Assembly (NCBI GenBank): GCA_965261065.1
Contig: OZ253444.1
Location: 4,710,381 to 4,774,380 of the forward strand
Source: Bryobacterales bacterium
GTDB taxonomy: Bacteria > Acidobacteriota > Terriglobia > Bryobacterales > UBA6623
Direction: 5' to 3'
Length of the DNA: 64,000 nt
The translations under genes were made by a program, and so were the position numbers. How positions within the stretch are numbered: position 1 is the stretch's first letter; each line of letters begins with the position of its first letter. The notes under the pieces are model-generated. The model was not told the DNA's origin. It did not search any database and saw only the letters and a program-made list of their open reading frames with translations. Positions 6,034 to 60,234 of this stretch are shown here, piece after piece.

Positions 6034-6051
6034 ATCGGTACAGGCAACCGC
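6034..6051. repeat. left copy of 18-bp direct repeat atcggtacaggcaaccgc (putative TSD of the IS1202-like element)
   Basis: An identical 18-mer recurs at 7649-7666, immediately outside the two inverted ends of the element. Confidence 0.7.
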
Positions 6052-7648
6052 TGTCAACGCCCAATAGAAATGTCCCCCTCGGTAGCTCGATAGAAGTGTC
6101 CCCTTGTGTTTCTTGTTCGTAGGAGAGATATCGTCGTCGTCGGGGCTGTGGAACTGTGGGAATCGCGTAGCGATTTCCAAGGGGCGGTGGGAAGGGTGGA
6201 AAACCATCCACCGCTCCTCGAACCCGGTACTGCTGCCTCGAGAGATTTTCCACGCTTTCCATCCGACCCGGCATTTCCACAGCCCTCTTATGTATTCGCA
6301 GCCCGTTTTTTCAGTAACACAGCTCGCCGCCAGGGGTGGTTCGCCGCCGGCTTGCGCCCGCCCCCCGGACGCTGCTGTGGTGCTGGCTTCGTCCGCAGCT
6401 GTGGCGTCGGCGTGGCGATCACGTCGTGCTCGATCTCGTGCCCGTCAAACCTCACCTGCAAGCTCTCATCGCGCCACTGTTGGACCGTCACCCGTGCCCC
6501 CGCCCCCACGCCCTGGTTGCGTTTCGGCTTCAACTGCAAACAACGATTCTCGAAACGCACCACCCGGTCGTTGCTCACCACGCGTTCGTACTCGCAACAG
6601 AACACCCCTCGCAGCTCGGTGCCGCGGGGGAGCGCCTGGTGAAAGTCCGCTGCCGCCGCCGGCTCACAGGCGAAGCGCTCGTTGTGCTCGGCCAGGTACT
6701 CCTCGTCGAGATAACGGTTCGCCGCCTCGTACTCGACGATCCCGCGCAGCCGCATCTTCTTGATCAGGCGGTCTTGGTGCGTGCCGTGATGGCGCTCCAC
6801 TCGGCCCTTGGCTTGCGGCGAGGAAGCCGCCATGATCGTAATGCCGAGCTTGGCACACATGCGCCCGAACTGCGTCTCGGGCTTGATGCCTGCCAGCGCT
6901 TCCCGCGACGTCGGCTGGCGCTGGTAGACGTTTTTCCAGTCGCAGTACAACGCCTTGGGAACGCCGTGTTGACGTACCCAGGCTGCGAGCAGATCGGCCG
7001 CGGCCCAGGTCGTTTCCTGGTCCGAGAAACGGCACAGCGCCACACCGGTCGCGTCATCGACGAAGTTCATCAGACAGGCTTTCGGGCCGCGTTCTTCCAG
7101 CCAGTGGTGGTGCGAACCGTCGAGTTGAATCAGCTCGCCGAAGTGCGCTTTGCGTTGGCGCCGGGTGCGATGCGGTTGGCGCTTGCGACGGCGGCTCCAC
7201 AGACCCGCGGCGAGCATCCAGCGCCGCAGTGTTTCGCGCGGCACTTCCAGGCCGTGGTCGGCTGCCAGATGTTCCGACGCCAGCGTCGGCCCGAAGCGCT
7301 CGTGCCCCTCGCCCGCATAGTTCTCGCGCACCAACTCGAGAACCTGCTGGCGTCGCTTCTGATCGGCTCGGTTCGAAGCACGGCCGACGTTACCGTGCAC
7401 CAAAGCCTTGGCCCCGCCCGCACGGTAACGCTTCTTCAGACGCTTCGCATGGCGGTAGCTGACCTCCAGCAGCTCGGCGGCTGCGGTCAACTTCAGTTCC
7501 CCTCGTTTCACTCGGCTCAGCACTTCGCCGCGCCTCAACTCCTTGGCACTCATCCATGTCCTTCCCACTCTCGGCTCCTCCTTCGGAGCCTCAGAGTAGG
7601 GGACATTTCTATTGGGCGCTCAAGGGGACATTATCATTGGGCTTCAAC
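6052..7648 (-). mobile_element. IS1202/ISNCY-like insertion sequence (~1.6 kb)
   Basis: Single rve-type transposase ORF. The ends carry duplicated ~15-bp motifs in inverted orientation. The left end has cccaatagaaatgtcccc at 6060-6077 and gatagaagtgtcccc at 6089-6103. The right end has ggggacatttctattggg at 7599-7616 and ggggacattatcattggg at 7624-7641. An 18-bp direct repeat flanks the element. Confidence 0.7.
6288..7568 (-). CDS. transposase, HTH + integrase-core (rve/DDE) type, IS1202/ISNCY-like
   Basis: 426 aa. N-terminal HTH (LKLTAAAELLEVSYRHAKRLKKRYRAGG). The central region has DDE-integrase-like blocks (LIQLDGSHHHWLE, CLMNFVDDATG, LYCDWKNVY, SPQAKGRVERHHGTHQDRL). Confidence 0.75.
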   Translation of the reverse strand: MGRTWMSAKELRRGEVLSRVKRGELKLTAAAELLEVSYRHAKRLKKRYRAGGAKALVHGNVGRASNRADQKRRQQVLELVRENYAGEGHERFGPTLASEHLAADHGLEVPRETLRRWMLAAGLWSRRRKRQPHRTRRQRKAHFGELIQLDGSHHHWLEERGPKACLMNFVDDATGVALCRFSDQETTWAAADLLAAWVRQHGVPKALYCDWKNVYQRQPTSREALAGIKPETQFGRMCAKLGITIMAASSPQAKGRVERHHGTHQDRLIKKMRLRGIVEYEAANRYLDEEYLAEHNERFACEPAAAADFHQALPRGTELRGVFCCEYERVVSNDRVVRFENRCLQLKPKRNQGVGAGARVTVQQWRDESLQVRFDGHEIEHDVIATPTPQLRTKPAPQQRPGGGRKPAANHPWRRAVLLKKRAANT

Positions 7649-7666
7649 ATCGGTACAGGCAACCGC
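7649..7666. repeat. right copy of 18-bp direct repeat atcggtacaggcaaccgc
   Basis: Identical to 6034-6051. Confidence 0.7.
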
Positions 7667-7684
7667 CCACGCCGGAGAGTACTA

Positions 7685-8778
7685 TTGAGTCCCGCATAAT
7701 ATCCCGTCACTAGAAGCAAAGAGAAGACTGTTTCCAGAAGGCCGTGATCAAACGCGGTTTGCGGTGCATGCGGCGGAGTGCCTTGCGGGCCCGCTCGTTC
7801 AGCTCGCCGTAGTCCTTCGGACAGACGTTCGGCAACTTGTGCTGCTTCCAGTAAGCCCAGATGTATTCCACCGGATTCAACTCCGGCGCATAGGGTGGCA
7901 AGTACTCGGTTGCGATGTGGCCTTCGGAGAGTTGGATGAACTCTTGCACCAGGCGGCTACGGTGCGCAGGCAGCCGGTCCCAGACGATCAGCAGCGGCCG
8001 ATCGATATGACGTACCAACGCCTTGAGAAAGTCGATCACTTGCTCTTTGCCGATCGCACCGGGATAGAGCCGAAAGTAGAAGTTACGCAGCGTCAGCCCC
8101 GCCGAGACGGAAAGCTTCTCCCAATTGAAGTTAAACTGCAGCACCGGTGTTTGGCCGCGTGGCGCCCAGGTGCGGCAGCGATGCGGCTTCTGACTCAATC
8201 CGCTTTCGTCGATGAAGACGAGCGTACGATCTTCGTTTTGGGCTTTTTTTTAATGCGCGTCCAGGTCTTGCGCTTCCAGGTGCGGATCTGCTCTTCGTTG
8301 CGCTCGCGCGCCTTTCCGACCGGGCGTTGCGGGCTCCAGTCGAGCGCTCGCAGGATCTTCCAGACGTGGCCTTCGTGGTAGTCGACCCCGAACTCGTCTC
8401 CGATCAGCCGAGCCACCCGCGGACAGCTCCACAGGGGCGTGGGGAAGCCGTGGGCTTGCGGGCCTTCCAGCAACAGCGACGTCAGGCGTTCGCATTGTGC
8501 GGCATCGAGGAGCGGCTTGCGTCCGGCGCGCCCGGCCTGGCGGAGTCCGGCCGCACCCTGCTCGCGGTATTGCCGCCGCCACGCACTGACGGTTTGGCGA
8601 GCGACTTTCAGCCGTCTTGCCGTCTCGGACTGATTGTGGCCTTGGTCGAGCAGCCGCATCGCTTCGAAACGGCGCTTCTCCAGGGCCTTGAAATCCCGCT
8701 TCACACCTTTGGGGTTGCCCATACATATATAGATGCTCCAAACTATCAAAAAGTGTCATAATAATTTGCGGGATTCAA
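7685..8778 (-). mobile_element. IS630-family insertion sequence, copy 1 (1094 bp) with TA target duplication
   Basis: Imperfect terminal inverted repeats (IRs): ttgagtcccgcataatat at 7685, with the inverted ttgaatcccgcaaattat ending at 8778. TA lies on both sides (7683-7684 and 8779-8780). It is nearly identical to the copy at 36037-37130. Confidence 0.9.
7710..8749 (-). CDS. IS630-family transposase, two overlapping ORFs joined by a -1 frameshift
   Basis: ORF A (8195..8749) is the HTH part. ORF B (7710..8198) is the DDE part (LLIVWDRLPAHRS, EYLPPYAPELNPVEYIWAY). The -1 frame opens exactly at the A8 run (forward T8 at 8244-8251; slippery A AAA AAG). The joined product reads WTRIKKKAQNEDRTLVFIDESGLSQKPHR, which restores the IS630-typical F.DES block. 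Confidence 0.85.
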
Positions 8779-8930: not shown

Positions 8931-10485
8931 ATGCGCGATCTAGAACGTACTCCAGTCCTGTCGCGGGACGAAGTGGTCATAAGTAAGAACGTCCAACGCG
9001 ACCTCCAGAGACTGGCCACCAAGCTCTCGCCCCGCACCCAGACGGTCGAGAGGCGCTGGCGTCGCCGTCTCAAGACCGTGTTCGCCGGCGGGTTGAGTCC
9101 CAGTGGGGCGCGCGCCCTGGCTTCGATCAACCCGGGGTGCGTGGGCGGACCTGTTGGCGGCGGGCAACATCAGCGCTTTCCTTGAGCAGGTCGACTATCA
9201 TGGCCGCCGATTGGCCAAGCTCGATGTGCCGCCCAACAGTGTACTCGAGTCCCTGAAGGAATATGAGGAGGCCTTGGCGCCCGACCTTAAGAGGTTCTTT
9301 CCGGGTAACTACGGCCGATACCTCGCGGCCCTCGATCATCTCAACTTTTGCATCAAGCTCACGCTCAACAGCGCTTACTACCAAGTGCGCGACTCTGAGG
9401 CGCAGGCCTTCTACGAGGTCTTCCAGGACCAACTCCAGTCTTTGAGCGTTGACGACCTGATGGCGCGCGTCCTTGCAACCCTGATGCGCACCTTCCGCGC
9501 GCAAGGAGGGGTGATTCTGCTGCTCGAGGAGGAGTCACGGAGACTGGTCGCAAAAGCCTGGAACGGCATGGAGGAGTCCCTGGCCACGCGGTTCAACGCC
9601 GCTGTGGGCCGCGGGTTTGCCGGCAAAATCGCCGGCAGCGGCAAGCCGCTGGCTGTCACCGACGTCGCCGGCGAGCGGCTGGTACGCTCGGCCGAGATTC
9701 GCGAGGCGTTCCGCAGTATTTGGGGAGTGCCCCTCGTGGTGGATGGCGAGGTTCGAGGCGTGCTTCATCTTGGGTTTTCACGCGAGTACCACTGCCTGCC
9801 GCGCGAGATGACTCTACTCGAGGCGATCGCCGAGCGCTGCGCCATGGCGATTGACAAAGTGCGGCTGCTCGAGGATCTCCACGACCGCGAGGAGAAGATC
9901 CGCCAACTGGGCGAACACATGCTCAAGGTGGAGGAGGAGGAGCGCCGTCGCATCAGCCGTGAACTCCACGACGAGGTGGGCCAATCGATGCTGGTGATCC
10001 GGCTCTACCTCGAGATGCTGCGCGGCAACCTGCCCCCCGAGGCAAAGAACTTGGCTCCGAAGATCGAGGAGACGCAGCAGTTGACCGAGCAGACGATCCA
10101 GGAAATGCGCCGCCTGATTTCGGCGCTCAGCCCGAATGTGCTCGAGAACCTGGGCCTGCCGGCCAGCATCCGGCAGTTCGTCAGCAACTTCCGCCGAACG
10201 TTCGAGGGCGACGTTCGCCTGCAAATGTCCGGGTTGGACGACCTGCCGCAAGGCACCCAGATCATGCTCTACCGGCTGGTGCAGGAGTGCTTCAGCAACA
10301 TCATGAAGCATTCTCGTGCCGGCGCCGTGGCCTTGAGCGTGGGCCGCAAGAACGGCAAGATTCACCTTCAAGTGCGAGACGACGGCGTCGGCTTCGATCT
10401 TTCCGAGGCCGGGCGCAAGCGCGAGTCGTTCGGACTCGCGGGCATGAAGGAGTTGAGTTTTTTAGGAGTGAGTGAGGTTAACCCC
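8931..10485 (+). pseudogene. sensor histidine kinase (N-terminal sensor, GAF, HisKA_3, HATPase_c), frameshifted and 3'-degenerate
   Basis: The GAF-like region (VILLLEEESRRLVAKAWNG..WGVPLVVDGEVRGVLHLGF) is followed by the HisKA_3 H-box ERRRISRELHDEVGQ. The N-box (ECFSNIMKHSRA), G1 (VRDDGVGFD) and G2 (FGLAGMKE) follow. The rest of the ATPase lid and C-terminus and a stop codon are missing. The N-terminal sensor part starts in another frame (ATG 8931, track ORF 8922..9185) and joins near 9130-9140 at cccggggtg. Confidence 0.7.
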
Positions 10486-10756
10486 ATGGCAAGAATTCGC
10501 ATCCTTCCGCAGCCGCATCAAGTCGACCCACCGTCAGCCGCGCTTCGCCACGCTGACCCCGCGCGAGAAAGAGATCCTGAAGTTCCTCGCCGAAGGGCAG
10601 TCGGTCAAGGAGATCGCGCAGCACCTCAACATCAGCGTGAAGACTGTCGAGGCGCACAAGTTCAACTTGATGCGCAAGCTCGACATTCACAACAAGGCGC
10701 AGTTGGTGCAGTACGCGATTCAGAAGAAGATCATCAAGATTCCGATCGGACCCTGA
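10486..10756 (+). pseudogene. NarL/LuxR-type response regulator lacking its receiver domain
   Basis: ATG 10486 has an upstream GGAG/GAGG and encodes MARIRIL, a typical receiver N-terminus. The receiver domain is absent after 7 codons. The LuxR HTH (LTPREKEILKFLAEGQSVKEIAQHLNISVKTVEAHKFNLMRKLDIHNKAQLVQYA) continues in the +1 frame (track ORF 10472..10756). Confidence 0.65.
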
Positions 10757-10914
10757 CGACTGGCGGCGCCCGAGTTCGGGCGCTGACCATCACTGCCGAG
10801 CCGACCCGCCTCCTGGCGTGGCGGCTTCGGCCTGCGCGGCCGGCCGCTAGTCGGGCACGGCCGCCGGACGCTGAACTTCCTTCCAAACCCGTGGGGCCTG
10901 CTCTTGCGGCCGCG

Positions 10915-12654: not shown

Positions 12655-13045
12655 TGCTGTCCTCTCTGGTTGCAACTGATGAAGCCAATCTATCCTAGCG
12701 CAGGCGCCCAAGACCTTCAGCCGAGCACGGGTTGGGGACAGCGATTTCGCAAAGCGGTCACGGCAGAACCTGAAGGTGATTGATTCGGCGGCGTTTGGGG
12801 TGGGGATGGAGCCGGAGCCCTGTTTTGCACGGCCCTCGACCGCCCGCGCAGGGCTGATTGTGGAGACCGACGACAAGGCTCCGGGCGCCTGCGGGGCAGG
12901 TGCTGGGCCGGCGTGGAGCCTGCGACGAACGGCCCTGGAATCAACTCGAATCCAGCAGCTCCACCACCAACCCGTAGGCCAGTTGGCGTGCCACCGCACC
13001 AAAACCCGGTGCACGCCGACCCTCCCGAGGCCGCACTTGACGGTG

Positions 13046-14131
13046 CTAGAACACTGGCGTCAGCAAGTACGCCAGCAAACGAATCATCGTCAGCACCACC
13101 AGCGCTTGCGGATGGCTCTGGTGCACCGACGGCTGCTTGAGATGGGCCTCGGTCGTCATCGTCTGAAACAGACTCGTCTCGATCGACCAGCGGCTGCGAC
13201 CGATCTGATGGATGAACCAGGGCGGGATGGCCCCCCACTCGATGTTGCTGGCGTAAAAGTCGGTGCTTTCTTTTTGCTCGGCTTGCTTGACCGGTTGCTG
13301 CTCGACGATCGTGACGCGCCGCCGGGTCTGCTTGCGCTTGCACTCGACGACGCCCACCGTCCGGTTCGCCACCGGCCACGCCACGGCCGGCTCATGCCAC
13401 AGCCAGAGTTGCTCCTCGGCGCTATCTTCGCGCAGATCCTCCCCCCGAGCGGTGCGCCGCTCGGCCTCGGCCAACAGCCGGGGCTGGTTGTCTTTGAGGT
13501 TGATCACCCACTCCAGCCCCAACGCTTCCAGGGCCGTGACGAAGGGGGTTTCCAAGTACAGCGCATCGGCCACCAACACGTCGAAAAAACGGCGGCCTAA
13601 GCGTTGCACCAACTCTTCGACCAGCGCCAGCCCGCACGCCACTTCCCCTTCGCCGGGTTTTTGAAAACGCAGGCCCAAGGGAACCGCGAAGCTTGAGCTG
13701 ACCACCGAGACGACGACCACGCGATGGTAGTACTGCGTGCACTCGATGGTTTCGCCGCGAACTTTGCGTTCGACCGTTCGTGCCGAACAGCGCGAGCAGC
13801 AACGGCGATAGGAGCGAGCGATCTCGATGCCGTCGAGCGCGGCGACGACCCGACCGCGGGCCCACGTCGACCCCAACACACCATTCCGTTTCAGCCGCCG
13901 CGCCAGCCGACAGCCCAGCTCGAACAGCGCCGCCGGGTCCTGGCGCTCGAGGGTGTAACGCAGCGCGTCTTCGGAGAGCGGACCGATGCGTTTCCACAGC
14001 GCCCCCTGACGGCATTCGGCCTCGATCGCATGCAGACCGGGCCACTGGCAGGCGCAACCCAAAAACACGGCATCCAAGAGGCGCGACAGGGCAAGGCGCG
14101 GCGCCGAACGTCCGTCGGGCAAAGCCGCCAC
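13046..14131 (-). CDS. DDE transposase (IS4/IS701-like superfamily; exact family not assigned)
   Basis: 361 aa from a GTG, with the frame open further upstream. It has a zinc-ribbon-like CCSRCSARTV and transposase-like blocks (FDVLVADALY, IGRSRWSIETSLFQTMT). It follows the small Cys-motif ORF as in the 43.2-44.9 kb module. Confidence 0.6.
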   Translation of the reverse strand: MAALPDGRSAPRLALSRLLDAVFLGCACQWPGLHAIEAECRQGALWKRIGPLSEDALRYTLERQDPAALFELGCRLARRLKRNGVLGSTWARGRVVAALDGIEIARSYRRCCSRCSARTVERKVRGETIECTQYYHRVVVVSVVSSSFAVPLGLRFQKPGEGEVACGLALVEELVQRLGRRFFDVLVADALYLETPFVTALEALGLEWVINLKDNQPRLLAEAERRTARGEDLREDSAEEQLWLWHEPAVAWPVANRTVGVVECKRKQTRRRVTIVEQQPVKQAEQKESTDFYASNIEWGAIPPWFIHQIGRSRWSIETSLFQTMTTEAHLKQPSVHQSHPQALVVLTMIRLLAYLLTPVF

Positions 14132-14189
14132 GGCGGCACGGAAGTCAAAGACCTTGTCGAGATAGGCCTCGAAGCGGCGGCGGCGCAGG

Positions 14190-14531
14190 CTAGGAGGTCT
14201 CCTTGTCGCGCAGCCAGCGGCGCAGATTCAGTTCGCAGATGCTGTCGGCGATCTGGCGCAAGCGGTGCCGCAGCGAGACGCGGCGACGCACCGACTCGAC
14301 CATCGCGGCGGGAATATGGAAGGTGCGCGGTTTGCCTTCGAAGCGTACCGAGAGCAGGAACTCGTGATGGAGTTGTTGGCCGTCGGCACAACGGCAGGTG
14401 GGCTTGCCGCAGCGGCGGCGGCGTTCGACGAACGAGCCGGGCAGCATCTCCCGCAGGGCGGAGAGGCTGCGCATGAGGCGGCCGCGGCGGGCCAGATCGG
14501 GGTGGGAGGCCAGGGGTTCCTTATCTGCCAC
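14190..14531 (-). CDS. small IS-associated protein with the CGKPxCRC motif (resembles the family I recall as DUF6788; unverified)
   Basis: 113 aa containing RRRCGKPTCRCADGQQLH. A paralogous motif (RRCGKPGCRCAQPDSPPHGP) occurs in the ORF at 44427..44843, which also sits directly upstream of a transposase. Confidence 0.55.
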   Translation of the reverse strand: MADKEPLASHPDLARRGRLMRSLSALREMLPGSFVERRRRCGKPTCRCADGQQLHHEFLLSVRFEGKPRTFHIPAAMVESVRRRVSLRHRLRQIADSICELNLRRWLRDKETS

Positions 14532-14640
14532 TTATTATAGTGGCAGAAAGAGCGAAAGTCAAGCCCGTTGAAAGTTTTGCAAAAATGATCCCGCTAGGGC
14601 GAACCCCGCAAGCTCTACCAAACCAGCCGCTTACCTAGCC

Positions 14641-16335
<1,695 letters not shown>

Positions 16336-16651
16336 AATTACACCATACGGTCCCCACAAGACGTTTGTTTCCTCGTTCTTGGCTGGGACTCAGCTTCCTG
16401 CGTTTCTTGGTCGGCAAGAACGGGAGCGAACCAAGCCCTACCTGCGGTTGAATCCGGCCGTGATGTAGGAGGCAGATCCCGGCCTGTCGGCCAGTGTAAA
16501 GCCAAACGCCACCAGAAGAGCGCGTAACGCGCTACCCGCAGAACTGGCAGCCCGTCCTGCCGGTTCCGGCGGCTGCCCTCCACACCACTCCCCGGGCAAG
16601 AAGTCCAGCCAGCCCTGGAAGAACAAATTGATGAGATAGGATAGCAACAAG

Positions 16652-19611: not shown

Positions 19612-19718
19612 TCCGATTCGTCGAGATGCTCTCGGGTCGAGGCGACGTAAGGATCCCACATGTCCATCGCGACGGCCTCGACTCGGGCGAGTTGCTCTGC
19701 GCTCAACGTCTTCCAAAA
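19612..19718 (-). pseudogene. ISL3-family transposase internal fragment (~36 codons)
   Basis: The minus frame reads FWKTLSAEQLARVEAVAMDMWDPYVASTREHLDESD. The VEAVAMDMW.PY block is characteristic of ISL3 transposases. It is cut by IS1380 copy 1 on one side and abuts a GNAT fragment on the other. Confidence 0.5.
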
Positions 19719-19727
19719 GCCGTCCAT

Positions 19728-19961: not shown

Positions 19962-20014
19962 AAGTGTCTGTTGCTCTGGGGACTCAGCCCCTGGAGACAG
20001 TTCCCGGCGCGCCT

Positions 20015-20551: not shown

Positions 20552-20714
20552 CGTTACCTCCCATGAAGGCTGACGTGGCGCACGTATTCTTGCGTGCCGT
20601 GTCGCCATTCCTGGCGACATCGTGGCGCGAACACTCCTGTCCGCGCAGCATGGCGAGCATTCGCTCCCCGCCCCGGGACCAACCGAGCGATCCCGTAGAC
20701 ACCGCCGCCATCAA

Positions 20715-47899: not shown

Positions 47900-47902
47900 C
47901 TC

Positions 47903-49192: not shown

Positions 49193-49207
49193 AGCTCTCT
49201 CGATCGC

Positions 49208-50530: not shown

Positions 50531-50801
50531 GTGATGCCCTTTCTCTCCAACACTTGACTTTCATTCTAGACCCTGACCGCCGCCACCGCCGTCACGTGAC
50601 GTGGCGCAGCGCCTGAACTGCCTCCCGTCGGGCAGACCGTATGAGTCTCACGACCGGGACTCGGTCGACCGCCAGCCTCATTGAATCACGACCGTCACGA
50701 CGTTGGCGACGACGCCGTCCACATCGATGACAATCTCCACTTCGCCGCGCCCGATTAGATCTCGTGAAATCGGACCGAGGTTAAACTGATCGAGCCTAAG
50801 T

Positions 50802-51335
50802 CCGCTTGCCCGACCAGCTCTCGGTTCAGCGCCATCAGCCCCAGCAGGTTCTCTTCGCTCGCCAGCATCTCCGTCTCGAAGCCGTGCAGCGTCGAGGTCA
50901 AGGCCGCACCGCGATCCCAGATCTTCTGCGAACCGATCAGCCGAAACGTCGGATCGATCGAAACCCGCTCGGCGTCGTTGAGGTCCTCGTAGCCGGCGAG
51001 TCGGCTGTAAACCGACTGCCGCAACAGATCAGCGAGCGTGAACTGCTTGTTTGTGCCTTGCCGGGAGTCGCTGAGATGCTCGTCAATCAGTTCTCCGAGA
51101 CCGAGCCGTTCGTCCAGTTCGCGAACCAAAATCAGGCCACCGTCGGAAGTGACGTGCGATCCCTGGAAATCGACTTTGAGAAGTCCATTGAAACTTAGCT
51201 GGAATGGCTTGGTTTGTTTTTCACCCATTGGGTGTTGGCCTCCATGGCGTTCTCATCGGGCTCTAGCCCCTATGAATAAAGACGCTCAAGACCGCTGGAA
51301 GGTCGGGATGTCAAACATCAAATTGAAAATGCGGG
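50802..51335 (-). mobile_element. IS1380 fragment (left end plus first ~144 codons of the transposase)
   Basis: Collinear with copy 1 from the end cccgcattttcaatttg (inverted at 51319-51335) to ..LMALNRELVGQA. Homology stops abruptly near 50802. Confidence 0.85.
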
Positions 51336-51912
51336 CTAAGAAGAAGCCCTGGTCTCCCGCAAACAGAACGGGGATCTCTCGTCCGTCGATCGTCGCCCGT
51401 ACTGCGGAGAGATCCGAGCGGCCCCGGACACCCGTGGCGAACAACACCAGAAACACCTCGCTCCCTCGATCCAGGCGGTGGCGCTCAGAGTGGTAAACAA
51501 CGAGGTCGCCACAACGAGCGAGGGGTCATCGAGCGCGAGGACGGTCGCCGCCAGGCGGTCGCAGTAGTCGCCGTCCGGCTGTGTGATACAGGCATCGAAC
51601 GCCGGATCACGCTCGACCGCGTTACCCTGCTCGTCTCGAACCCCCTGGGTCACCACGAGCAGGTAACGCCGATGCTGCAGGGGCAAAGCGGCATCGCTGG
51701 CACGGCTGCAACCCTCCACCTTCGCTCAGTCGTCACGCTCGCAGATCCGTCGGCGTTGGCGCATGAGTCGACCCTGGTGTGTGGGCGGACGCACCGACAC
51801 CTGCGCCGCACGCCAATGGCAACTCATGGTCATCAAGTCACGTACAGAACGATTGAATTTTGGGACAATACGGGGTTGGGAGAGTCCTCTGCATTCTGAA
51901 AACGCGCTGACA

Positions 51913-54531
51913 ATGGCTGCCCCACTCCGCGTTCCTTGGAAGATCGTAGCTCTATTGTCGACGAGCCTCTCTGCGTTTCCTCAAGTAAATCCGGACATCG
52001 CCGGAGTCGCGCACACGGTGCTGGCGGAACACTGCCTGTCCTGCCACGGCTCGGCGAAAACATCAGGACTGGATCTTCGAAGCCGCGAGGCGTTGCTGCG
52101 CGGTGGTGTCCGCGGGCCGGCTGTGACTTCCGGCCAGATTGAGTCAAGCTTGCTCTACCAAGCGGCGGCTCACTTGGGAGATCTAAAGATGCCGCCGGGG
52201 AGCGCCGATCCGCTGCCTGTCGATCAGCTCGGCATCCTTCGACGCTGGCTTGACGCGGGCTTTCCGTACCCAACCCCGGATGGGCAGCCCGGATCGAGTG
52301 CGGACGAAAAATGGTGGTCCTTCAAACCTCCCCGACGCCCCAAAGTGCCCCAAGTGAAGCATGCTGATCTGCCGAACCCGATCGACGCTTTTGTGTTCGA
52401 AAAGTGGGAGCATGCGGGACTGCACCATGCTGCGCCGGCAAGCAAACAGGTGTTGGTGCGGCGAGCCTACTTTGACTTGGTCGGTCTGCCTCCCAGCCCA
52501 GCGGAGATCATCCAATTCACAAAGGACGAATCGCCCGACGCCTACGAGGAGCTGATCGACCGGCTTCTCGAGTCAAAGCGATACGGCGAGCGCTGGGGTC
52601 GGCACTGGCTCGACGTCGTGCGCTATGCCGACAGTGGTGGTTTCGAGACCGACGAGTTCTACCCCGACGCATGGCGGTATCGCGACTACGTGATCAAGTC
52701 GTTCAACTAAGACAAACCCTACGATCGGTTCGTCCAAGAGCAAATCGGCGCGGACGAGCTGTGGCCGAACAACCTGGATCTCTACGACAGCAGCTACGCA
52801 ATCCGCCCCGAGAAGGTGGAACATCTGGAGGCGCGCGTGGGCACGGGTCTCTACACGTTCGGCACGGCTATAGGCGAGTCGTATCTTGAAACGCCGCAGC
52901 TACTGTATGAACGCTTTACGGATTGGGTAGACACGACCGGGGCCGCCTTCATGGGCCTCACGGTGGGGTGCGCCCGGTGCCACGATCACAAGTTTGATCC
53001 GATCACTCAGGAGGAGTACTTCCGACTGCAGGCAGTGTTTGCCGCGAGCCAACCCGTGAGCCTCTCCGTCGTCACAAAGATGACGGAGTTTCACCGGAAC
53101 GAGGCGTACCCCCGCTACGTCGCGCTTGATGAGAGCCGCAATGCCTACGAGCTGTTTCTCGATCGCGTCAAGCAGCGTCTCGTCAACGAAAAGAAGACTG
53201 AGTTTGAAGCGGATATCGTTGGGGCGTTCGAGGTGCCTGAGGACGAGCAAACAGATGAGCAGAAGAAGCTTGCCGAACCTCTCGTCGAGGCGGTGGCGAA
53301 GATCAATCCTGAAGAACACTTCACGGCTGAGGAAACGATCGAGAAGACAAAGTTACAGCTCGCGATCGCCGAGGCTGTGATCGCGGTTCCAAGACAGGAT
53401 GCCTCGCACGGCGTTCGCTTCGACGCTTTGTTCGACATCCCCTCGGCAACGGTGCTGGGCCCTGTCGCGCCGGAGCTGATTCCCGCGATCCATGTTCTTG
53501 ACCGCGGAGACCTACAAAGCCACAAGGCCAGGGTGGGGCCCGGTTTTCCCTCTGCTCTCAGCCGTGGGGATGAGTTCGAGACCCGCGATCCGAACGGCCA
53601 TCGTTATCGAAAAAAGCTCGCTCTTTGGCTCACCAGTCCCGACCACCCACTCACCGCTCGCGTGATGGTCAATCGCCTTTGGCAGTGGCATTTCGGGCGT
53701 GGGATAGTCGGCAGTTCCAATGACTTCGGTCGGCAAGGCCAACCGCCGACTCATCCGAAACTGCTTGACTGGCTGGCCACTGAATTCGTCGCTCGCGGCT
53801 GGAGTCTCAAATCGATGCACCGGCTCATCATGACGTCGTACGCCTACAAGATGTCGAGCCAATTCTCACACAGAGACAACCTTGCGATCAACCAAGACAA
53901 CCGTTACCTTTGGCGCGCCAACCGGCGGCGACTGGAAGCAGAAACGGTTTGGGATGCGATCCACTCGGCGGCGGGCACGCTGAATCTGAAGATGGGCGGG
54001 CGGCCCTTTGTGCCCCCGCTCTCCGATGCCGAGCTTGCGCCCCTGCGTAACAAGTGGTGGTGGACGGTGCCGGCCGATCCGGCGGATCATTCGCGGCGGG
54101 GTGTGTACATGCTGGCCCGTCGTACTTTCCTGTTCCCGATGTTTGACAAGTTCGACACGCCGGATCCGGCCGTGAGCAGCCCGAGCAGAGAAGTGACCAC
54201 GGTCGCTCCCCAGTCACTGTTTCTGCTCAACAATCCGATTGTCTTCCGACAGGCGCTGGCGTTTGCTGGACGACTGGTGCAAGAAACGGGCGAAGACCCT
54301 GCCAAATGGGTCGATCTTGCTTGGCGCATCAGTTTCGCGAGGGCTCCGACGGCTGCGGAAGCGAGGGAAGCGCTTGAACTCCTGGAATCCGCTTCCGGTG
54401 AAGGCGGCTGGGAGAAGGCCCCCGAGAATCTCCCGAAAGCCTTGGTAGGTATCGATCCAGCAAGAGCACGGGCGTTGACGGAGCTGTGTCTGGCGATCTT
54501 TAATTTGAATGAGTTTCTCTTCGTCGACTGA
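51913..54531 (+). pseudogene. PSCyt (CxxCH) + DUF1549 + DUF1553 protein with an in-frame TAA
   Basis: Start at ATG 51913 ([22 protein letters not shown]). The heme-type motif is CLSCHG. The DUF1549 block is [21 protein letters not shown]. The two track ORFs share a frame and are separated by TAA at 52708-52710 inside ..[26 protein letters not shown]... DUF1553 blocks follow (CARCHDHKFDP..). Confidence 0.75.
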
Positions 54532-57805: not shown

Positions 57806-59170
57806 ATGGCTGCCGGCACAACACCTGATCCCTATCTGCTCACCTCAGATAGTGTGGAAGTTGCCCCCACTCGGGCCTTCGAGACCTTGAAGCGAATCGG
57901 CCCTGGGCTGGTGACGGCGAGCGCGGTCGTGGGTACCGGCGAGTTGATCGCAACCCCGGTCCTCGGAGCAGAGAACGGCTACTCGCTGTTGTGGCTCGTC
58001 ATCTTAAGCTGCGGGATCAAGGTCGTAGTTCAGAACGAGTTGGGCCGATACACCATCGGCACCGGCGAGACCGGGCTGGAGGCGCTGAATCGTCTACCGG
58101 GACCCCGCTTCCGTGTTTCGTGGGTCCTATGGCTGTGGCTGTGCATGTATACCACGACGCTGATGACCCAGAGCAGCATGCTGGCCGGCATCGCCGAGGT
58201 GATGAATCGCATCTTTCCATCGATATCGATTCCGGTGTGGGTATGGACGGTGACGATAGGAACGATCGTCTTGTTGGTTGTCGGCCGCTATGGGTTCATC
58301 GAGAAGGTCTCGATCAGTCTGGTCGTCTGCTTTACGCTCGTCACTGTTGGCGCCGCGCACGTTCTGATGCTGAGGCCTGAGTACTTCTCGTGGGAGAGTG
58401 TGGCCGACGGACTCTCGTTTCACTTGCCGCAAGGTGGGTTGGTAACGGCAGCGGCAGTATTTGGAATCACAGGGGTTGGGTCGGCGGACCTCATCAACTA
58501 CCCGTATTGGTGCATTGAGAAGGGGTACGCTCGTTACACGGGTCCGCGCGACGAAACCCCGGCTTGGGTCAGCCGGGCGCGGGGGTGGATTCGCGTCATG
58601 GGAGTGGATGTCGGCACGTCGGCCGTTGTCTACACGTTCGCGACCATTGCGTTCTATCTGCTGGGCGCGGGCATCCTACATGGGCTCGGAGTCGTGCCTG
58701 AGGGGACTGAGACCATTCGTGCCCTTTCGAACATTTACACCGAGACATTGGGCGGCTGGTCAAACTACCTTTTCCTTGCCGGCGCCATCGCTGTTTTGTA
58801 TTCGTCTCTCTTTGCCGGGACGGCGGCCGCCGCCCGGCCCTATGCTGACTTCGTGCGTCTACTCGGTGGTTACGATCGACATGACTCTGTGGCGCGTTTC
58901 CGTTACATTCAGGTCTTCTCCGTGGTCTTACTCTTGATCCCGGTACTCTACTACGTCCTCTTGCGGGAGCCGGTGTTGATGGTGAAGATCGGTGGCGTAG
59001 CCCAAGCCCTCATGCTCCCCATCATCGGAGCAGCGACGTTGTACTTGCGGTATGTTCACCTACCGGGGAAGATTCTGCCCAAAGGCTGGATTACTCTGGC
59101 GCTTTGGATCACGACCGCCGTGACCGCCGTGATGATGGGGTACTCGCTTTTGCGGCAACTGGGTTTCTGA
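57806..59170 (+). CDS. Nramp-family divalent metal transporter
   Basis: 454 aa and about 11 hydrophobic segments. The N-terminal block is LKRIGPGLVTASAVVGTGELIATPVLGAENGYSLLWLVIL. Confidence 0.75.
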   Translation: MAAGTTPDPYLLTSDSVEVAPTRAFETLKRIGPGLVTASAVVGTGELIATPVLGAENGYSLLWLVILSCGIKVVVQNELGRYTIGTGETGLEALNRLPGPRFRVSWVLWLWLCMYTTTLMTQSSMLAGIAEVMNRIFPSISIPVWVWTVTIGTIVLLVVGRYGFIEKVSISLVVCFTLVTVGAAHVLMLRPEYFSWESVADGLSFHLPQGGLVTAAAVFGITGVGSADLINYPYWCIEKGYARYTGPRDETPAWVSRARGWIRVMGVDVGTSAVVYTFATIAFYLLGAGILHGLGVVPEGTETIRALSNIYTETLGGWSNYLFLAGAIAVLYSSLFAGTAAAARPYADFVRLLGGYDRHDSVARFRYIQVFSVVLLLIPVLYYVLLREPVLMVKIGGVAQALMLPIIGAATLYLRYVHLPGKILPKGWITLALWITTAVTAVMMGYSLLRQLGF

Positions 59171-60167
59171 CGAGTTCGCCGGCGGACACCAAAGCAATGC
59201 CGAAAGCCTGGTATCCACTTGACTCAGGTGACCCCAACATCTTGTAGTTGGGCTCACAGCGTCTTAGCGTCCCAATCGGCGTCGGCTCCACCGCCATGGC
59301 CTGCTGCACAAGGCGGTAGAAGAGCTTGCCCCGACTGCGTGATCTGCGCCGATTGAAGCGGAACACGAACTCGTCGAGATAGTAGTCCAGATGCTCGTGG
59401 CTGACCGCCCCCTGATGCGTGCCCAGCATCCAGCGCTTGAGTAGCGAGATCGCCAAGTGCACCCTCGGCAGTAGCTGCGAGGCCTGCTCGCGGCGGTTGT
59501 TAATCGAGATGATACGACGCTGGTAGTCCTTCTTCTTGAGCGGATCGTAGCCCGACCAGTTGTCGGTAACAACCACGCTGCCCGGCTCGACCGACTCCTC
59601 GACGAAGGGCATCAAACTGGCCGCCGAGGCGTTCTGAACGCGCTGCATGCGGATGCGCCCCAGCCCGGTGCCTCTCTCTTCCGCGGCGACTGCAATCAAC
59701 GCTTTACGCTCGGTCTGCCGGCCGATTACCCCTTCTTCTTCAGCGCCCCAGTAGGTCTCATCGACCTCGACGAGGCCCGTCAATCGCTCCCGCCCCGGGC
59801 GCACCATCGCTCGCCTCAGCTTGTGCATCCAAGGCCAGGCGGTTTGGTAACTGCTCAGTCCCAGAACGCGCTGTAGACCCAGGGCGCTGGCCCCATTCTT
59901 CTGCGTGGTGATGGTCCACATCGCCCGGAACCACAGCCGCAGCGGCTTGCGTGTGTCTTGAAAGATCGTGCCGGCGGTGACGGAGGTTTGCCGCCCGCAG
60001 CGAGCGCATTCGAACCACACTTTGCGCACCGGCCAAGCGCGCTCATGCCCACACCTTGGACAGCGGAAACCCTCTGGCCAGCGCAAGGCGAACAGATAGT
60101 CGCGGCAAGCCTCCTCGCTCGCAAAGTGAGACTCGAATTCGAGTTGGTCGCGCGGGTAATCCTCCAC
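59109..60167 (-). pseudogene. IS1595-family transposase, copy B, with a 19-bp deletion near the 3' end
   Basis: Identical to copy A except for a few substitutions and the loss of taccgctcgatcgtcgccg (between cgccg repeats, junction near 59277). This shifts the frame, so the ORF reads out of the element (..AVEPTPIGTLRRCEPNYKML..). Confidence 0.8.
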
Positions 60168-60217
60168 CAGGCCCTACACTACATCTTGGGGTCACCTGAG
60201 TCAAGTGGATACCCAGC
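59206..60217 (-). mobile_element. IS1595-family insertion sequence, copy B (1012 bp) with 8-bp TSD tgccgaaa
   Basis: Same terminal IRs as copy A. tgccgaaa lies at 59198-59205 and 60218-60225. It is inserted in the 64-bp spacer between the Nramp gene and the TPP-enzyme gene. Confidence 0.9.
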
Positions 60218-60234
60218 TGCCGAAATTCAAGAGC

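What the first reader, a model, noticed from the sequence alone, without database searches (positions are those of the whole stretch)
6034..60225. About a quarter of the window is IS DNA from at least nine families, and most accessory genes around it are broken
These elements can be read directly from ends, TSDs and transposase motifs: an IS1202-like element (6052-7648); IS630 x2; IS1380 x3 plus a fragment; IS1595 x2; two small-Cys-ORF+DDE modules (13.0-14.5 kb, 43.2-44.9 kb); and IS6, ISL3 and integrase/IS91-like remnants. Together they total roughly 16-17 kb of 64 kb. Housekeeping-looking genes (gltBD, the dGTPase-like gene, korB, the radical-SAM operon, Nramp) are intact. Sensors, secreted enzymes and transport genes are frameshifted, stopped or truncated. 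IS expansion together with pseudogene accumulation is the classical signature of relaxed selection or a recent bottleneck. It is not commonly described for the lineage suggested by the gene content.
Basis: partly seen in the sequence, partly recalled or inferred. Interest (0 to 1): 0.6.

Follow-up and report, generated by a model that had tools for sequence, protein, structure and literature searches.

The report
IS-riddled decaying stretch, acidobacterial chromosome
A quarter of this 64-kb piece of a roughly 9-Mb soil acidobacterial (Bryobacterales) chromosome is insertion sequences from eight families, lying among about fifteen broken accessory genes; near-identical genomes show the elements are still jumping, which makes this a known kind of genome erosion that is unusually well documented rather than a new phenomenon.

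Summary
Thirteen IS copies or remnants from eight DDE families (IS1202/ISNCY, IS630, IS1380, IS1595, an unassigned IS4-like element, ISKra4, IS6, ISL3) cover 15.9 kb, or 24.8% of the window. There is also an inverted-repeat-flanked Xer-like integrase. No IS91 was found. About 15 of about 37 non-IS genes are broken by nonsense codons, frameshifts, a 0.5-kb deletion or IS truncation.

Most lesions recur in independent near-identical assemblies, so they are not noise. Two frameshifts lie in C9/G7 runs and remain doubtful.

The lineage is Bryobacterales (Acidobacteriota), not Planctomycetes.

Contigs 99.7-99.96% identical to the window lack three features: the IS1202-family element (17-bp target duplication), IS1380_A, and a 5.2-kb ISEcp1-like transposition unit. 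That unit is IS1380_C plus a korA'-korB-CBS cargo copied from a plasmid-like element. They also carry TGG where the window has a TGA stop in a PQQ-propeller gene.

So korB is cargo, not a native housekeeping gene.

Related genomes show similar IS clustering, 10-27% repeated DNA around IS1380 copies.

Best reading: an IS-accretion zone of dispensable, paralogous genes in an IS-active lineage. A genome-wide bottleneck is untested. A 30:2 GC-to-AT excess on the window's branch keeps that reading alive.

The parts
6052..7649 (-). IS1202-family (ISNCY) element of the ISTde1 subgroup, intact. The 17-bp target duplication TCGGTACAGGCAACCGC lies at 6035-6051 and 7650-7666.
   Evidence: Transposase scores NF033594 at 395 bits against a cut-off of 250. 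The inverted repeats start with TGT. The empty site holds a single copy of the target in L091 (99.96% identical flanks) and in L040. A 15-17 bp direct repeat and TGT ends define the ISTde1 subgroup (bioRxiv 10.1101/2022.12.17.520857).
7685..8778 (-). IS630_A, flanked by TA. It has two ORFs overlapping at an A8 run (8244-8251), with orfB in the -1 frame, so probably a programmed frameshift.
   Evidence: NF033545 scores 122 and 102 bits for the two halves against a cut-off of 100. The A8 run is present in both copies. The site is empty in L040. Relatives also call two ORFs.
9103..10759 (+). GAF-HisKA_3 histidine kinase that has lost the end of HATPase_c, fused to a NarL-type response regulator that has lost its receiver domain. 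The cause is a deletion of about 0.5 kb at 10451-10504.
   Evidence: HATPase_c matches profile positions 3-82 of 111 only. Translation shows 'MARIRIL' followed by only the LuxR HTH. Syntenic L040 has 539 bp where the window has 53 bp, with an intact 537-aa HK and 227-aa RR. The lesion is shared with L091.
12739..14667 (-). IS4-like element, not assignable by NCBIfam. It carries a DUF6788 small ORF (14190-14531) and a DDE_Tnp_1 transposase (13046-14131), has 16-bp terminal inverted repeats CAGCGATTTCGCAAAG, and has no target duplication here.
   Evidence: Family scores are (IS4 model 43 bits, below the 115 cut-off). Boundaries come from 97.3% identical copies in L081-L086. More than 1,400 homologues exist, and the two-gene module is conserved.
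14641..16389 (-). Membrane-anchored PQQ-like beta-propeller pseudogene. It has a TGA stop at 15838-15840, and its last 8 codons are supplied by the IS4-like element.
   Evidence: The L031 homologue is continuous and has W at the stop position. L091 has TGG and a 566-aa gene.
16640..17522 (+). PhyH dioxygenase pseudogene with a frameshift at 17160-17197 that is not in a homopolymer.
   Evidence: Pfam profile positions 1-160 fall in one frame and 176-212 in another. There is no run of 4 or more bases in the bracket. L091 has the same 181-aa call.
17942..19606 (+). IS1380_A, intact (443-aa transposase), with the 5-bp duplication TTAAG at 17937-17941 and 19607-19611. It is absent from L091.
   Evidence: NF033539 scores 365 bits. 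The empty site is shown.
19612..24827 (-). ISEcp1-like transposition unit. It consists of IS1380_C (23162-24827, outer end IRL) plus 3,550 bp of adjacent DNA: korA' (N-terminally cut), korB, a CBS protein, a GNAT fragment and a 115-bp ISL3 fragment (19612-19726). It is flanked by TTAAG at 19607-19611 and 24828-24832, and it splits a 373-aa gene (17555-17941 plus 24828-25567).
   Evidence: The unit is absent from L091, which has a single TTAAG. It is 99.96% identical over 5,222 bp to L095, where IS1380_C sits in korA with the duplication TTCAG. korA is intact (622 aa) in L093 and L094, and the donor neighbours are RepA_C, MazE/PIN and T2SSE. The window's korA matches the model only from position 118 of 561. 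The ISL3 identity rests.
26037..27088 (+). IS1595_A with an intact transposase and no 8-bp target duplication. It replaces the 3' end of the 298-aa ORF at 26946-27842.
   Evidence: NF033547 scores 204 bits. The ORF tail matches IS ends in L056 and L023.
29635..30901 (-). Xer/integron-like tyrosine recombinase gene bracketed by 39-nt inverted repeats (29635-29673 and 30863-30901). Its stop codon is lost, so the product is 378 aa against 298 aa in the canonical form.
   Evidence: Pfam and NCBIfam hits are. The inverted repeats are (0 matches expected by chance). The stop loss is shown against cluster members. No IS91 transposase lies nearby.
31502..33887 (+). DUF4132/DUF7737 pseudogene (about 795 aa when repaired), with a TAG stop at 32135-32137 and a frameshift near 33190.
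   Evidence: The 211-aa N-terminal ORF aligns to residues 1-203 of 773-1031-aa proteins.
34020..34690 (+). IS6 remnant, N-terminally truncated and frameshifted.
   Evidence: PF13610 matches profile positions 42-138 of 139. NF033587 scores 61 bits, below the 125 cut-off, and covers model positions 109-202. The two frames are shown.
36037..37130 (-). IS630_B. It is 99% identical to copy A, is flanked by TA, and probably truncates the HDOD fragment at 35232-35978.
   Evidence: The HDOD match covers profile positions 13-194 of 196, with no GGDEF domain.
37135..38799 (+). IS1380_B. It differs from copy A by four changes (five bases) and is inserted at the very end of IS630_B, with flanks ATAAG and TTAAG.
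38858..39888 (-). Pentapeptide-repeat/K+-channel gene whose two halves join exactly across a C9 run (39550-39558). This is a frameshift that could be real, phase-variable, or a consensus error.
43185..44918 (-). ISKra4 remnant. The transposase is in at least two pieces, and the upstream DUF6788-like small ORF (44427-44912) survives.
   Evidence: NF033572 scores 73 and 38 bits, below the 205 cut-off. An intact two-ORF relative in L002 scores 322 bits. The small ORFs are homologous at E = 1e-12.
46613..50604 (-). Intact operon of HemN-like radical-SAM protein, FAD halogenase-like protein and PaaK-like ligase. It is the only block syntenic with the 95%-identical relatives L087 and L088, and both flanks differ.
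50801..51337 (-). IS1380 fragment: the IRL end, 537 bp.
   Evidence: It is shared with L092.
51763..54531 (+). PSCyt1-PSCyt2-PSD1 pseudogene with an in-frame TAA at 52708-52710.
   Evidence: PSCyt2 profile positions 1-110 lie before the stop and 112-207 after it. The paralogue in L034 is continuous. The stop is shared with L092.
59196..60228 (-). IS1595_B. It is 97.4% identical to copy A, carries a 19-bp deletion near the 3' end of the transposase gene, and has no target duplication. It abuts the start of the TPP-enzyme gene.
62019..63016 (+). Periplasmic sugar-binding protein pseudogene with a frameshift at 62624-62669.
   Evidence: Peripla_BP_4 profile positions 1-156 and 164-257 fall in different frames. 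L092 shows the same split.

Best explanation
The window is an IS-accretion and gene-decay zone in the chromosome of a large-genome (about 9 Mb) Bryobacterales bacterium whose lineage carries several active IS families.

Shown:
- Thirteen IS copies or remnants from eight families make up 24.8% of the DNA.
- Several are simple, recent insertions with perfect target duplications.
- Three insertion events and one nonsense mutation separate the window from contigs that are 99.7-99.96% identical to it.
- One of those events is an ISEcp1-type one-ended transposition. IS1380_C used its IRL and a weakly related surrogate end to carry 3.55 kb of plasmid-like DNA (korA'-korB-CBS-GNAT'-ISL3') into a chromosomal TTAAG.
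- IS1380_A hit the same pentanucleotide.

Inferred:
- Insertions pile up here for two reasons. IS1380 and IS630 target AT-rich sites (5-bp duplications average about 31% G+C in a 61% G+C genome; IS630 uses TA), and such sites are concentrated in spacers and in the ends of earlier IS. Also, the genes here are dispensable members of large paralogous families (PSCyt/PSD1-DUF1501 pairs, PQQ propellers, two-component and c-di-GMP sensors, binding proteins), so hits are tolerated.
- Once silenced, genes collect point lesions and deletions.
- IS copies without target duplications, and very short synteny blocks, show that the IS copies also act as recombination substrates.
- Essential-looking genes between the IS stay intact because selection still works on them.
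For: - IS census and family scores.
- Target duplications and empty sites for the IS1202-like element, IS630_A, IS1380_A and the transposition unit.
- Donor locus, 99.96% identical over 5.2 kb, next to a RepA_C gene with 1,097 plasmid homologues.
- The ISEcp1/ISEc9 precedent, with a 5-bp direct repeat, IRL plus a weakly related IRR sharing 3-12 identical bases: PMC12116815. The surrogate end here matches 4 of 14 bases of IRR and 7 of 14 of IRL.
- Thirteen of 24 IS1380 copies in relatives have perfect 5-bp AT-rich duplications.
- The same TPR|HK spacer was hit independently by IS630 plus a nested IS1380 in another species (L040).
- Lesions are shared by independent assemblies.
- IS copies differ only by substitutions and one 19-bp indel, with no 1-bp indels.
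- Substitutions run at 1.82 per kb in pseudogenes against 0.72 per kb in intact genes, p = 0.007.
- Relatives show 10-27% repeated DNA around IS1380 copies and the same long-ORF coverage as the window, 0.72 against a median of 0.71.
- In a related genome (its IS1380 transposase is about 99.8% identical to the window's), the IS4-like copies sit singly among intact housekeeping genes, and their flanks are permuted in a 3-cycle, a sign of IS-mediated rearrangement.
- Synteny with a 95%-identical relative is limited to one 4-kb operon.
Against: - No genome-wide census was possible. The source contig's DNA could not be fetched, so 'local zone' against 'genome-wide expansion' is not settled.
- L092 shows further IS (an IS1595 fragment and IS3) just beyond the window.
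- The loci used for comparison were chosen because they contain IS1380, so their IS density is biased upward.
- The 30:2 GC-to-AT asymmetry and the 7:5 nonsynonymous to synonymous ratio in intact genes point to a long, weakly filtered branch for the window's lineage. That fits a bottleneck or a mutator better than steady state.
- Two frameshifts lie in homopolymers (C9 and G7), and the PQQ stop is a single window-specific base, so these may be consensus errors.
- The target-preference explanation for clustering is an inference, not a test.
Confidence: 0.62

Rival explanations
1. The whole genome is undergoing an IS expansion with pseudogene accumulation because selection has been relaxed by a recent bottleneck, a niche restriction, or a mutator state. 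On this view the window is simply a typical sample.
For: - Three new insertions and a new nonsense codon separate the window from 99.7-99.96% identical contigs, with none in the opposite direction.
- Outside IS elements, the window has A/T where relatives have G/C at 30 sites, against 2 in the reverse direction. The binomial p for the full 41:4 count is 9e-9.
- Changes in intact genes are 7 nonsynonymous to 5 synonymous.
- More IS lie beyond the window edge in L092.
- There are hundreds of IS1380 copies across Bryobacterales genomes (567 or more stretches; at least 23 in OZ250179.1).
Against: - Intact genes carry 2.5 times fewer substitutions than pseudogenes, so selection is acting.
- Most lesions and IS are older than the split from L091 and L092.
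- The genome is about 9 Mb, not reduced.
- In a related genome, IS copies sit singly among intact genes.
- The branch asymmetry could be an effect of comparing a clonal lineage with population-consensus assemblies.
- No genome-wide data are available.
Confidence: 0.25
2. The 6-60 kb stretch is a decaying horizontally acquired island, such as an integrated plasmid, ICE or prophage remnant, and not native chromosome. That would explain both the mobile DNA and the dispensability.
For: - A recombinase gene lies at 29.7-30.8 kb.
- 5.2 kb demonstrably came from a plasmid-like element carrying RepA_C, a toxin-antitoxin pair and a T2SSE ATPase.
- Synteny with relatives is patchy.
Against: - G+C content is uniform at 0.58-0.67 across the window.
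- There is no tRNA or other RNA gene that could serve as an attachment site.
- There are no conjugation, replication or phage structural genes in the window.
- The left part (2947-12654) is collinear with another species' chromosome (L040).
- Conserved chromosomal genes (gltBD, the HemN-like operon, Nramp) are interspersed.
Confidence: 0.1
3. The stops, frameshifts and IS junctions are artefacts of long-read metagenome assembly, such as consensus errors or chimeric joins at repeats.
For: - The relatives are long-read MAGs (record names).
- Two frameshifts sit exactly in C9 and G7 runs.
- The PQQ TGA differs from L091 by one base.
- A G13 run differs in length between assemblies.
Against: - The PhyH and PBP frameshifts, the HK/RR deletion and the PSCyt TAA recur in assemblies from other samples.
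- The other frameshifts are not in homopolymers.
- IS copies show no 1-bp indels.
- Insertions have perfect 5-bp and 17-bp duplications with matching empty sites.
- Differences are concentrated in pseudogenes, which random error would not produce.
Confidence: 0.03

Closest known systems
ISEcp1/ISEc9 transposition units (IS1380 family) that mobilise adjacent DNA such as blaCTX-M
   Same: - An IS1380-family transposase (NF033539).
- A 5-bp direct repeat.
- One genuine end (IRL) plus a weakly related surrogate end downstream, so that flanking DNA moves with the IS.
- Plasmid-to-chromosome movement.
The surrogate-end identity here (4-7 of 14 bases) falls within the 3-12 range reported (PMC12116815).
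   Different: - The host is a soil acidobacterium.
- The cargo is a truncated 2-oxoacid:ferredoxin oxidoreductase operon plus IS debris, with no obvious selective value.
- The surrogate end begins with T, not the conserved terminal base.
- Transposition is inferred from donor, empty-site and filled-site comparison, not assayed.
IS expansion with genome degradation in recently host-restricted bacteria, e.g. Shigella (PMC7373316)
   Same: - Multiple IS families are active at once.
- There is strain-to-strain insertion polymorphism.
- IS-interrupted and point-mutated accessory genes occur together.
- IS-mediated rearrangement and deletion are seen.
   Different: - This is a free-living-type lineage with a large genome of about 9 Mb.
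- Only a 64-kb sample was examined.
- Local evidence shows purifying selection still acting.
- Genome-wide copy numbers and pseudogene fraction are unknown.
Mobile-element load of Ca. Solibacter usitatus Ellin6076 and other Acidobacteria (PMC3469429, PMC5900883)
   Same: - The same order-level lineage.
- Many transposases and Xer-like integrases with 90-100% identical copies, implying recent duplication.
- No intact prophage.
- Large paralogous gene families.
   Different: - The families reported there are IS3, ISL3, IS66 and IS110. The dominant ones here are IS1380, IS630, IS1595, IS1202 and an IS4-like element.
- The local density here (about 12 transposase genes in 64 kb) is far above Ellin6076's 59 transposases in 9.9 Mb.
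- Pseudogenisation and event-level reconstruction were not described there.
ISTde1 subgroup of the IS1202 family (bioRxiv 10.1101/2022.12.17.520857)
   Same: - Transposase family.
- 5'-TGT termini.
- A direct repeat of 15-17 bp (here 17 bp).
- The subgroup has been reported from Acidobacteria.
   Different: Nothing tested differs. This is a new copy of a known subgroup, with its empty site documented.

Membership tests
IS1202 family, ISTde1 subgroup | ISNCY/IS1202-type DDE transposase | tested here: met
   NF033594 scores 395 bits against a cut-off of 250.
IS1202 family, ISTde1 subgroup | Terminal inverted repeats beginning 5'-TGT and a direct repeat of 15-17 bp | tested here: met
   TGTCAACGCCCAAT... 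and TGTTGAAGCCCAAT... ends, with a 17-bp duplication. The target is present once in L091 and L040.
IS1380 family | IS1380-type DDE transposase (DDE_Tnp_1_4) | tested here: met
   NF033539 scores 365 bits against a cut-off of 180, and PF13701 scores 399 bits.
IS1380 family | Target duplication of 4-5 bp | tested here: met
   TTAAG flanks IS1380_A. There are 13 perfect 5-bp duplications among 24 relatives' copies, and TTCAG in the donor L095.
ISEcp1-like transposition unit | A unit bounded by IRL and a surrogate IRR, flanked by a 5-bp duplication, with identifiable donor and empty site | tested here: met
   The unit is 19612-24827, with TTAAG on both sides. The empty site is in L091 and the donor in L095 at 99.96% identity. 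The surrogate end matches 4-7 of 14 bases.
ISEcp1-like transposition unit | Transposase-dependent mobilisation demonstrated | not testable with these tools
   This needs a transposition assay.
IS630 family | IS630 DDE_3 transposase and TA target duplication | tested here: met
   NF033545 scores 122 and 102 bits against a cut-off of 100. TA lies on both sides of both copies, and the site is empty in L040.
IS1595 family | IS1595 transposase with an N-terminal zinc ribbon | tested here: met
   NF033547 scores 204 bits against a cut-off of 75. PF12760 and PF12762 also match.
IS1595 family | 8-bp target duplication | tested here: not met
   Neither copy has matching flanks, and an inversion between the two copies does not restore them. 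This fits later rearrangement and does not contradict membership.
IS4 family | Transposase reaching the family model's cut-off | tested here: not met
   NF033592 scores 43 bits against a cut-off of 115, and NF033540 (IS701) scores 32 bits against 150. Only the generic PF01609 passes. The element is therefore filed as 'IS4-like, unassigned'.
ISKra4 family | Full-length ISKra4 transposase | tested here: not met
   The window's pieces score 73 and 38 bits against a cut-off of 205. An 81-88% identical intact copy in L002 scores 322 bits. The window copy is a degraded member.
IS6 family | Full-length IS6 transposase | tested here: not met
   NF033587 scores 61 bits against a cut-off of 125 and covers model positions 109-202 only, across two frames. 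This is a remnant.
ISL3 family | ISL3 transposase | tested here: inconclusive
   Only 115 bp survive (19612-19726). They are 99% identical to the interior of a 1.3-kb element whose transposase scores NF033550 at 292 bits against a cut-off of 180.
IS91 family | HUH Y2 transposase (Y2_Tnp / Zn_Tnp_IS91) | tested here: not met
   There is no hit in any ORF or in six-frame translations of the unassigned stretches, including 29170-29690 next to the integrase.
Bottleneck-type IS expansion with genome degradation | Genome-wide IS copy number and pseudogene fraction well above those of close relatives | not testable with these tools
   The source chromosome could not be fetched. Only 38.5 kb could be compared with near-identical contigs.
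Bottleneck-type IS expansion with genome degradation | Relaxed purifying selection | tested here: inconclusive
   There is a 30:2 AT-ward excess on the window's branch and a 7:5 nonsynonymous to synonymous ratio. Against that, intact genes carry 2.5 times fewer substitutions than pseudogenes.

The most novel reading that the evidence does not exclude
The window's strain is a recently bottlenecked or hypermutating clone of a free-living, large-genome soil acidobacterium, caught at the onset of IS-driven genome erosion. Relative to near-identical genomes it has gained three insertions and a nonsense mutation. It also carries about fifteen times more derived GC-to-AT substitutions than they do. 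If that holds genome-wide, the early phase of reductive evolution could be studied outside a host-associated setting.
Probability: 0.2. Interest if true: 0.6.

Novelty: new member of a known kind. Interest (0 to 1): 0.35.

Why it matters
It gives an event-by-event record of how IS reshape the chromosome of an abundant but poorly studied soil lineage. Filled sites, empty sites and a donor site are all available.

It shows that ISEcp1-style one-ended transposition, best known from clinical resistance genes, also moves plasmid DNA into chromosomes in Acidobacteria.

It warns annotators on two points. A 'housekeeping' korB here is transposon cargo, and PSCyt/PSD1/DUF1501 genes do not imply Planctomycetes.

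It does not establish a new mechanism or a genome-wide syndrome.

Tried and rejected
- **Planctomycete origin.** PSD1, PSCyt and DUF1501 genes suggested it. Record titles of relatives and synteny rejected it.
- **Plasmid origin of IS1380.** There was no match in PLSDB.
- **Exact-protein look-ups.** Seven window or cluster proteins found nothing, so the 31-46.5 kb middle of the window has no near-identical comparator.
- **IS91 and further IS in unassigned DNA.** Six-frame Pfam scans of eight stretches gave nothing.
- **Excising IS1380_A to restore the GNAT gene.** It does not. The GNAT piece was already a fragment in the donor.
- **Composite-transposon model** (IS1380_A plus cargo plus IS1380_C moving together). 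Rejected because the inner junction carries a third TTAAG that is absent from the donor's ISL3 sequence (TTTTC|TCCGATT). Two hits at one pentanucleotide explain all three copies.
- **Inversion between the two inverted IS1595 copies.** No reciprocal flanks were found.
- **Homopolymer-error explanation for all frameshifts.** It holds only for the C9 and G7 runs.
- **In-frame stops at 31496 and near 25.6 kb as lesions.** These are gene boundaries.
- **tRNA or other RNA landmarks.** None were found.
- **IS630_A and IS1595_A differences from L091 as new mutations.** They match other IS copies, so they look like copy conversion. They were left out of the 30:2 count.

Full report
**Origin of the window**

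The window has 58-67% G+C throughout. Its PSCyt/PSD1/DUF1501 genes suggest Planctomycetes. The IS1380 transposase, however, retrieves 567 or more related stretches, and essentially all of the best 80 are in Bryobacterales (Acidobacteriota) long-read MAGs. Homologues of the radical-SAM gene are named Bryobacteraceae or Bryobacterales. The left 10 kb is collinear with a Bryobacterales contig (L040).

Exact-protein look-ups found two contigs from other samples that are nearly identical to the window:
- L091 covers window 1431-31011 at 99.7-99.96% identity.
- L092 covers 46528-64000 at 99.82% identity.

Cluster data point to an 8,957,806-bp contig as the probable source.

**IS census**

Self-BLAST, family scans and boundaries taken from other copies give thirteen IS elements or remnants. 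Together they cover 15,853 bp, or 24.8% of the window.

| Element | Coordinates | Notes |
|---|---|---|
| IS1202-family | 6052-7649 | TGT ends, 17-bp duplication; ISTde1 subgroup by the criteria |
| IS630_A | 7685-8778 | TA duplication; two ORFs overlapping at an A8 run with orfB in the -1 frame; probably a programmed frameshift (inference) |
| IS630_B | 36037-37130 | as IS630_A |
| IS1380_A | 17942-19606 | intact |
| IS1380_B | 37135-38799 | intact |
| IS1380_C | 23162-24827 | 85% identical to copies A and B |
| IS1380 fragment | 50801-51337 | 537 bp |
| IS1595_A | 26037-27088 | no target duplication |
| IS1595_B | 59196-60228 | no target duplication |
| IS4-like element | 12739-14667 | 1,929 bp, 16-bp inverted repeats; DUF6788 ORF plus a DDE transposase that no NCBIfam IS model accepts |
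| ISKra4 remnant | 43185-44918 | degraded |
| IS6 remnant | about 34020-34690 | degraded |
| ISL3 fragment | 19612-19726 | 115 bp, 99% identical to a 1.3-kb ISL3 in relatives |

A Xer/integron-like recombinase gene at 29672-30808 is bracketed by 39-nt inverted repeats. No IS91 transposase was found.

**Broken genes**

About fifteen of roughly 37 non-IS genes are damaged:
- The HK/RR pair has lost about 0.5 kb. L040 has 539 bp where the window has 53 bp, and intact 537-aa and 227-aa genes.
- The PQQ propeller has a TGA where the L031 homologue has Trp. Its 3' end is replaced by the IS4-like element.
- PhyH and the periplasmic binding protein are frameshifted outside homopolymers.
- The PSCyt1-PSCyt2-PSD1 gene has a TAA in the middle of the PSCyt2 domain.
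- The DUF4132 gene has a TAG and a frameshift. Homologues are 773-1031 aa, and the window's 211-aa ORF matches only their N-terminus.
- A GNAT fragment, a second HDOD fragment, a PNP fragment and a protease reduced to its propeptide also remain.

Two frameshifts do lie in homopolymers. One is a C9 run that splits the pentapeptide/K+-channel gene. The other is a G7 run at about codon 20 of the HDOD-GGDEF gene. These could be errors or slipped-strand variants.

Intact genes are gltD, the dGTPase-like gene, the TPR gene, a disulphide isomerase, the BNR gene at 11470-12654 (it starts at a Tat signal), the radical-SAM operon, DUF1501, a luciferase-like gene, Nramp, a TPP enzyme and a GFO-family oxidoreductase.

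**Are the lesions real?**

- The PhyH frameshift and the HK/RR deletion recur in L091. The PSCyt stop, the PBP frameshift, the IS1380 fragment and IS1595_B recur in L092.
- Pairwise comparison of 3.8 kb of IS copies shows only substitutions and one 19-bp indel, with no single-base indels.
- Insertions carry perfect duplications with matching empty sites.
- Of the 47 substitutions that separate the window from L091 and L092, pseudogenes carry 1.82 per kb and intact genes 0.72 per kb (p = 0.007). Random consensus error would not produce that difference.

**What happened since the split from the near-identical genomes**

L091 lacks the IS1202-like element and has one copy of its 17-bp target. It also lacks everything from 17942 to 24827, and has one TTAAG there.

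The window has three TTAAG copies, at 17937-17941, 19607-19611 and 24828-24832.

The segment 19612-24833 is 99.96% identical to L095. There, IS1380_C sits inside korA with its own duplication TTCAG, and the ISL3 sequence runs on uninterrupted as TTTTC|TCCGATT. L093 and L094 have an intact 622-aa korA. Next to this donor locus lie RepA_C (37-43% identical to plasmid RepA in 1,097 PLSDB records), MazE/PIN, a T2SSE ATPase and a nuclease. One carrying contig is 115 kb.

The simplest history has two events at one pentanucleotide:
1. An ISEcp1-like unit (IS1380_C's IRL, then IS1380_C, then 3.55 kb of adjacent DNA ending at a surrogate end) transposed from the plasmid-like element into TTAAG inside a 373-aa chromosomal gene.
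2. IS1380_A inserted into one of the resulting TTAAG copies. The order of the two events may be the reverse.

One-ended transposition with a 5-bp repeat and a weakly related IRR is established for ISEcp1/ISEc9 of this family (PMC12116815). A composite-transposon model fails because the inner TTAAG is not donor sequence.

Consequently korB, the CBS gene and korA' are cargo, not native genes. The PQQ stop is also new: L091 has TGG at that position.

**Direction of point changes**

Outside IS elements, the window has A or T where L091 or L092 has G or C at 30 sites. The reverse holds at 2 sites. With the IS elements included the counts are 41 and 4, p = 9e-9.

Differences inside IS630_A and IS1595_A match other IS copies. 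They look like copy conversion and were excluded from the 30:2 count.

In intact genes the changes are 7 nonsynonymous and 5 synonymous.

The window's branch is therefore much longer than the relatives' branches and is only weakly filtered by selection. This could reflect a clonal, bottlenecked or mutator lineage. It could also arise from comparing a clone with population-consensus assemblies. Reads and whole genomes are needed to decide.

**Context in relatives**

- The 80 loci around IS1380 copies hold 123 IS1380, about 30 IS630 and 12 IS1595 transposase matches.
- Within-genome repeated DNA is 10-27% of these neighbourhoods, and 26% for the complete chromosome OZ250179.1.
- Their long-ORF coverage has a median of 0.71, against 0.72 for the window.
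- Thirteen of 24 IS1380 copies there have perfect 5-bp duplications. By my count these average about 31% G+C.
- In another species (L040), the same TPR|HK spacer carries an independently inserted IS630 with an IS1380 nested in it. The window's own IS1202 and IS630_A sites are empty there.
Their flanks of about 10 bp are permuted in a 3-cycle, the footprint of recombination between IS copies.
- Synteny between the window and relatives about 95% identical in DNA sequence (L087, L088) is confined to the 4-kb radical-SAM operon.

**Interpretation**

The evidence best fits a zone where insertions are both likely and tolerated. They are likely because IS1380 and IS630 prefer AT-rich targets, which spacers and the ends of earlier IS supply. 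They are tolerated because the genes here are redundant accessory paralogues. The lineage's IS are currently active, and they also drive deletions and rearrangements.

It is a genome-wide claim that these tools could not test, and local evidence shows that selection is still acting.

IS and integrase abundance in Acidobacteria is already published (PMC3469429, PMC5900883). IS expansions as transient 'punctuations' are a known pattern (PMC4072520).

The finding is a well-resolved new example of known processes, including a new host range for ISEcp1-type transposition units. It is not a new kind of system.

Noticed in passing
window 29635-30901: A Xer/integron-like recombinase gene is bracketed exactly by 39-nt inverted repeats (0 matches expected by chance). 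The window copy has lost its stop codon, giving 378 aa against 298 aa in the canonical form. Homologues 70-76% identical lie on many metagenome contigs of only 1.0-1.4 kb, with up to 123 member sequences. This looks like a multi-copy, roughly 1.2-kb tyrosine-recombinase mobile element.
   Followed up: partly
window 14190-14531 and 44427-44912 (both on the - strand): The small ORFs upstream of two unrelated DDE transposases (IS4-like and ISKra4) are homologous to each other: 33% identity, E = 1e-12, with a shared CGKPxCRC motif. One is Pfam DUF6788. No paper in the library mentions DUF6788. This may be a shared IS accessory protein.
   Followed up: partly
window against L091 and L092 (38.5 kb compared): Outside IS elements, the window has A/T where the near-identical contigs have G/C at 30 sites. 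The reverse holds at 2 sites. This points to a long, AT-biased, weakly filtered branch for the window's lineage, or to a clone-versus-consensus effect.
   Followed up: partly
window 39550-39558 (C9) and 41524-41530 (G7): The only two frameshifts that coincide with homopolymers lie in a pentapeptide/K+-channel gene and at about codon 20 of an HDOD-GGDEF gene. They could be slipped-strand (phase) variation or consensus error.
   Followed up: partly
L082, L083, L084 (ERZ25766727), flanks of the IS4-like element: The roughly 10-bp flanks of three identical IS copies are permuted in a 3-cycle: the right flank of L083 equals the left flank of L082, the right of L082 equals the left of L084, and the right of L084 approximately equals the left of L083. 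This implies successive recombinations between IS copies in that genome, or assembly joins at the repeat.
   Followed up: no
window 6035-8840 against L040 8842-11703: The same spacer of about 100 bp between the TPR gene and the histidine kinase was hit independently in another species. There it carries IS630 in the opposite orientation, about 60 bp away, with an IS1380 nested 54 bp inside it.
   Followed up: yes
window 7685-8778 and 26037-27088 against L091: The IS630 and IS1595 copies at orthologous sites differ between the two genomes at exactly the positions where the window's own two copies differ from each other. That suggests gene conversion between IS copies and not new mutation.
   Followed up: partly
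window 31103-31498: A 131-aa ORF ending ...LVPLMGG (a di-glycine C-terminus) lies 4 nt upstream of the DUF4132 gene. It has no significant Pfam family. It may be a ubiquitin-like partner of the DUF4132 protein.
   Followed up: no
window about 46-52 kb; L089 14054-21323: Cumulative GC skew reaches its minimum near 51 kb, and gene orientation switches there. In a relative whose radical-SAM protein is 88% identical to the window's, the radical-SAM operon lies about 3 kb from gyrB-dnaN-dnaA. The window has no dnaA.
   Followed up: no
window 20570-20620: A 51-bp stretch at the start of the CBS gene in the cargo is 98% identical to sequences in two other genomes (L025 and L011). Its nature is unknown.
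   Followed up: no
window 17809-17821: A G13 run inside the disrupted 373-aa gene differs by 5 nt from L091.
   Followed up: no
L092 1-1731 (beyond the right end of the window): The near-identical contig continues with an IS1595 fragment and an IS3 element within 4 kb of the window's end, so the IS-rich zone extends past 64 kb.
   Followed up: no
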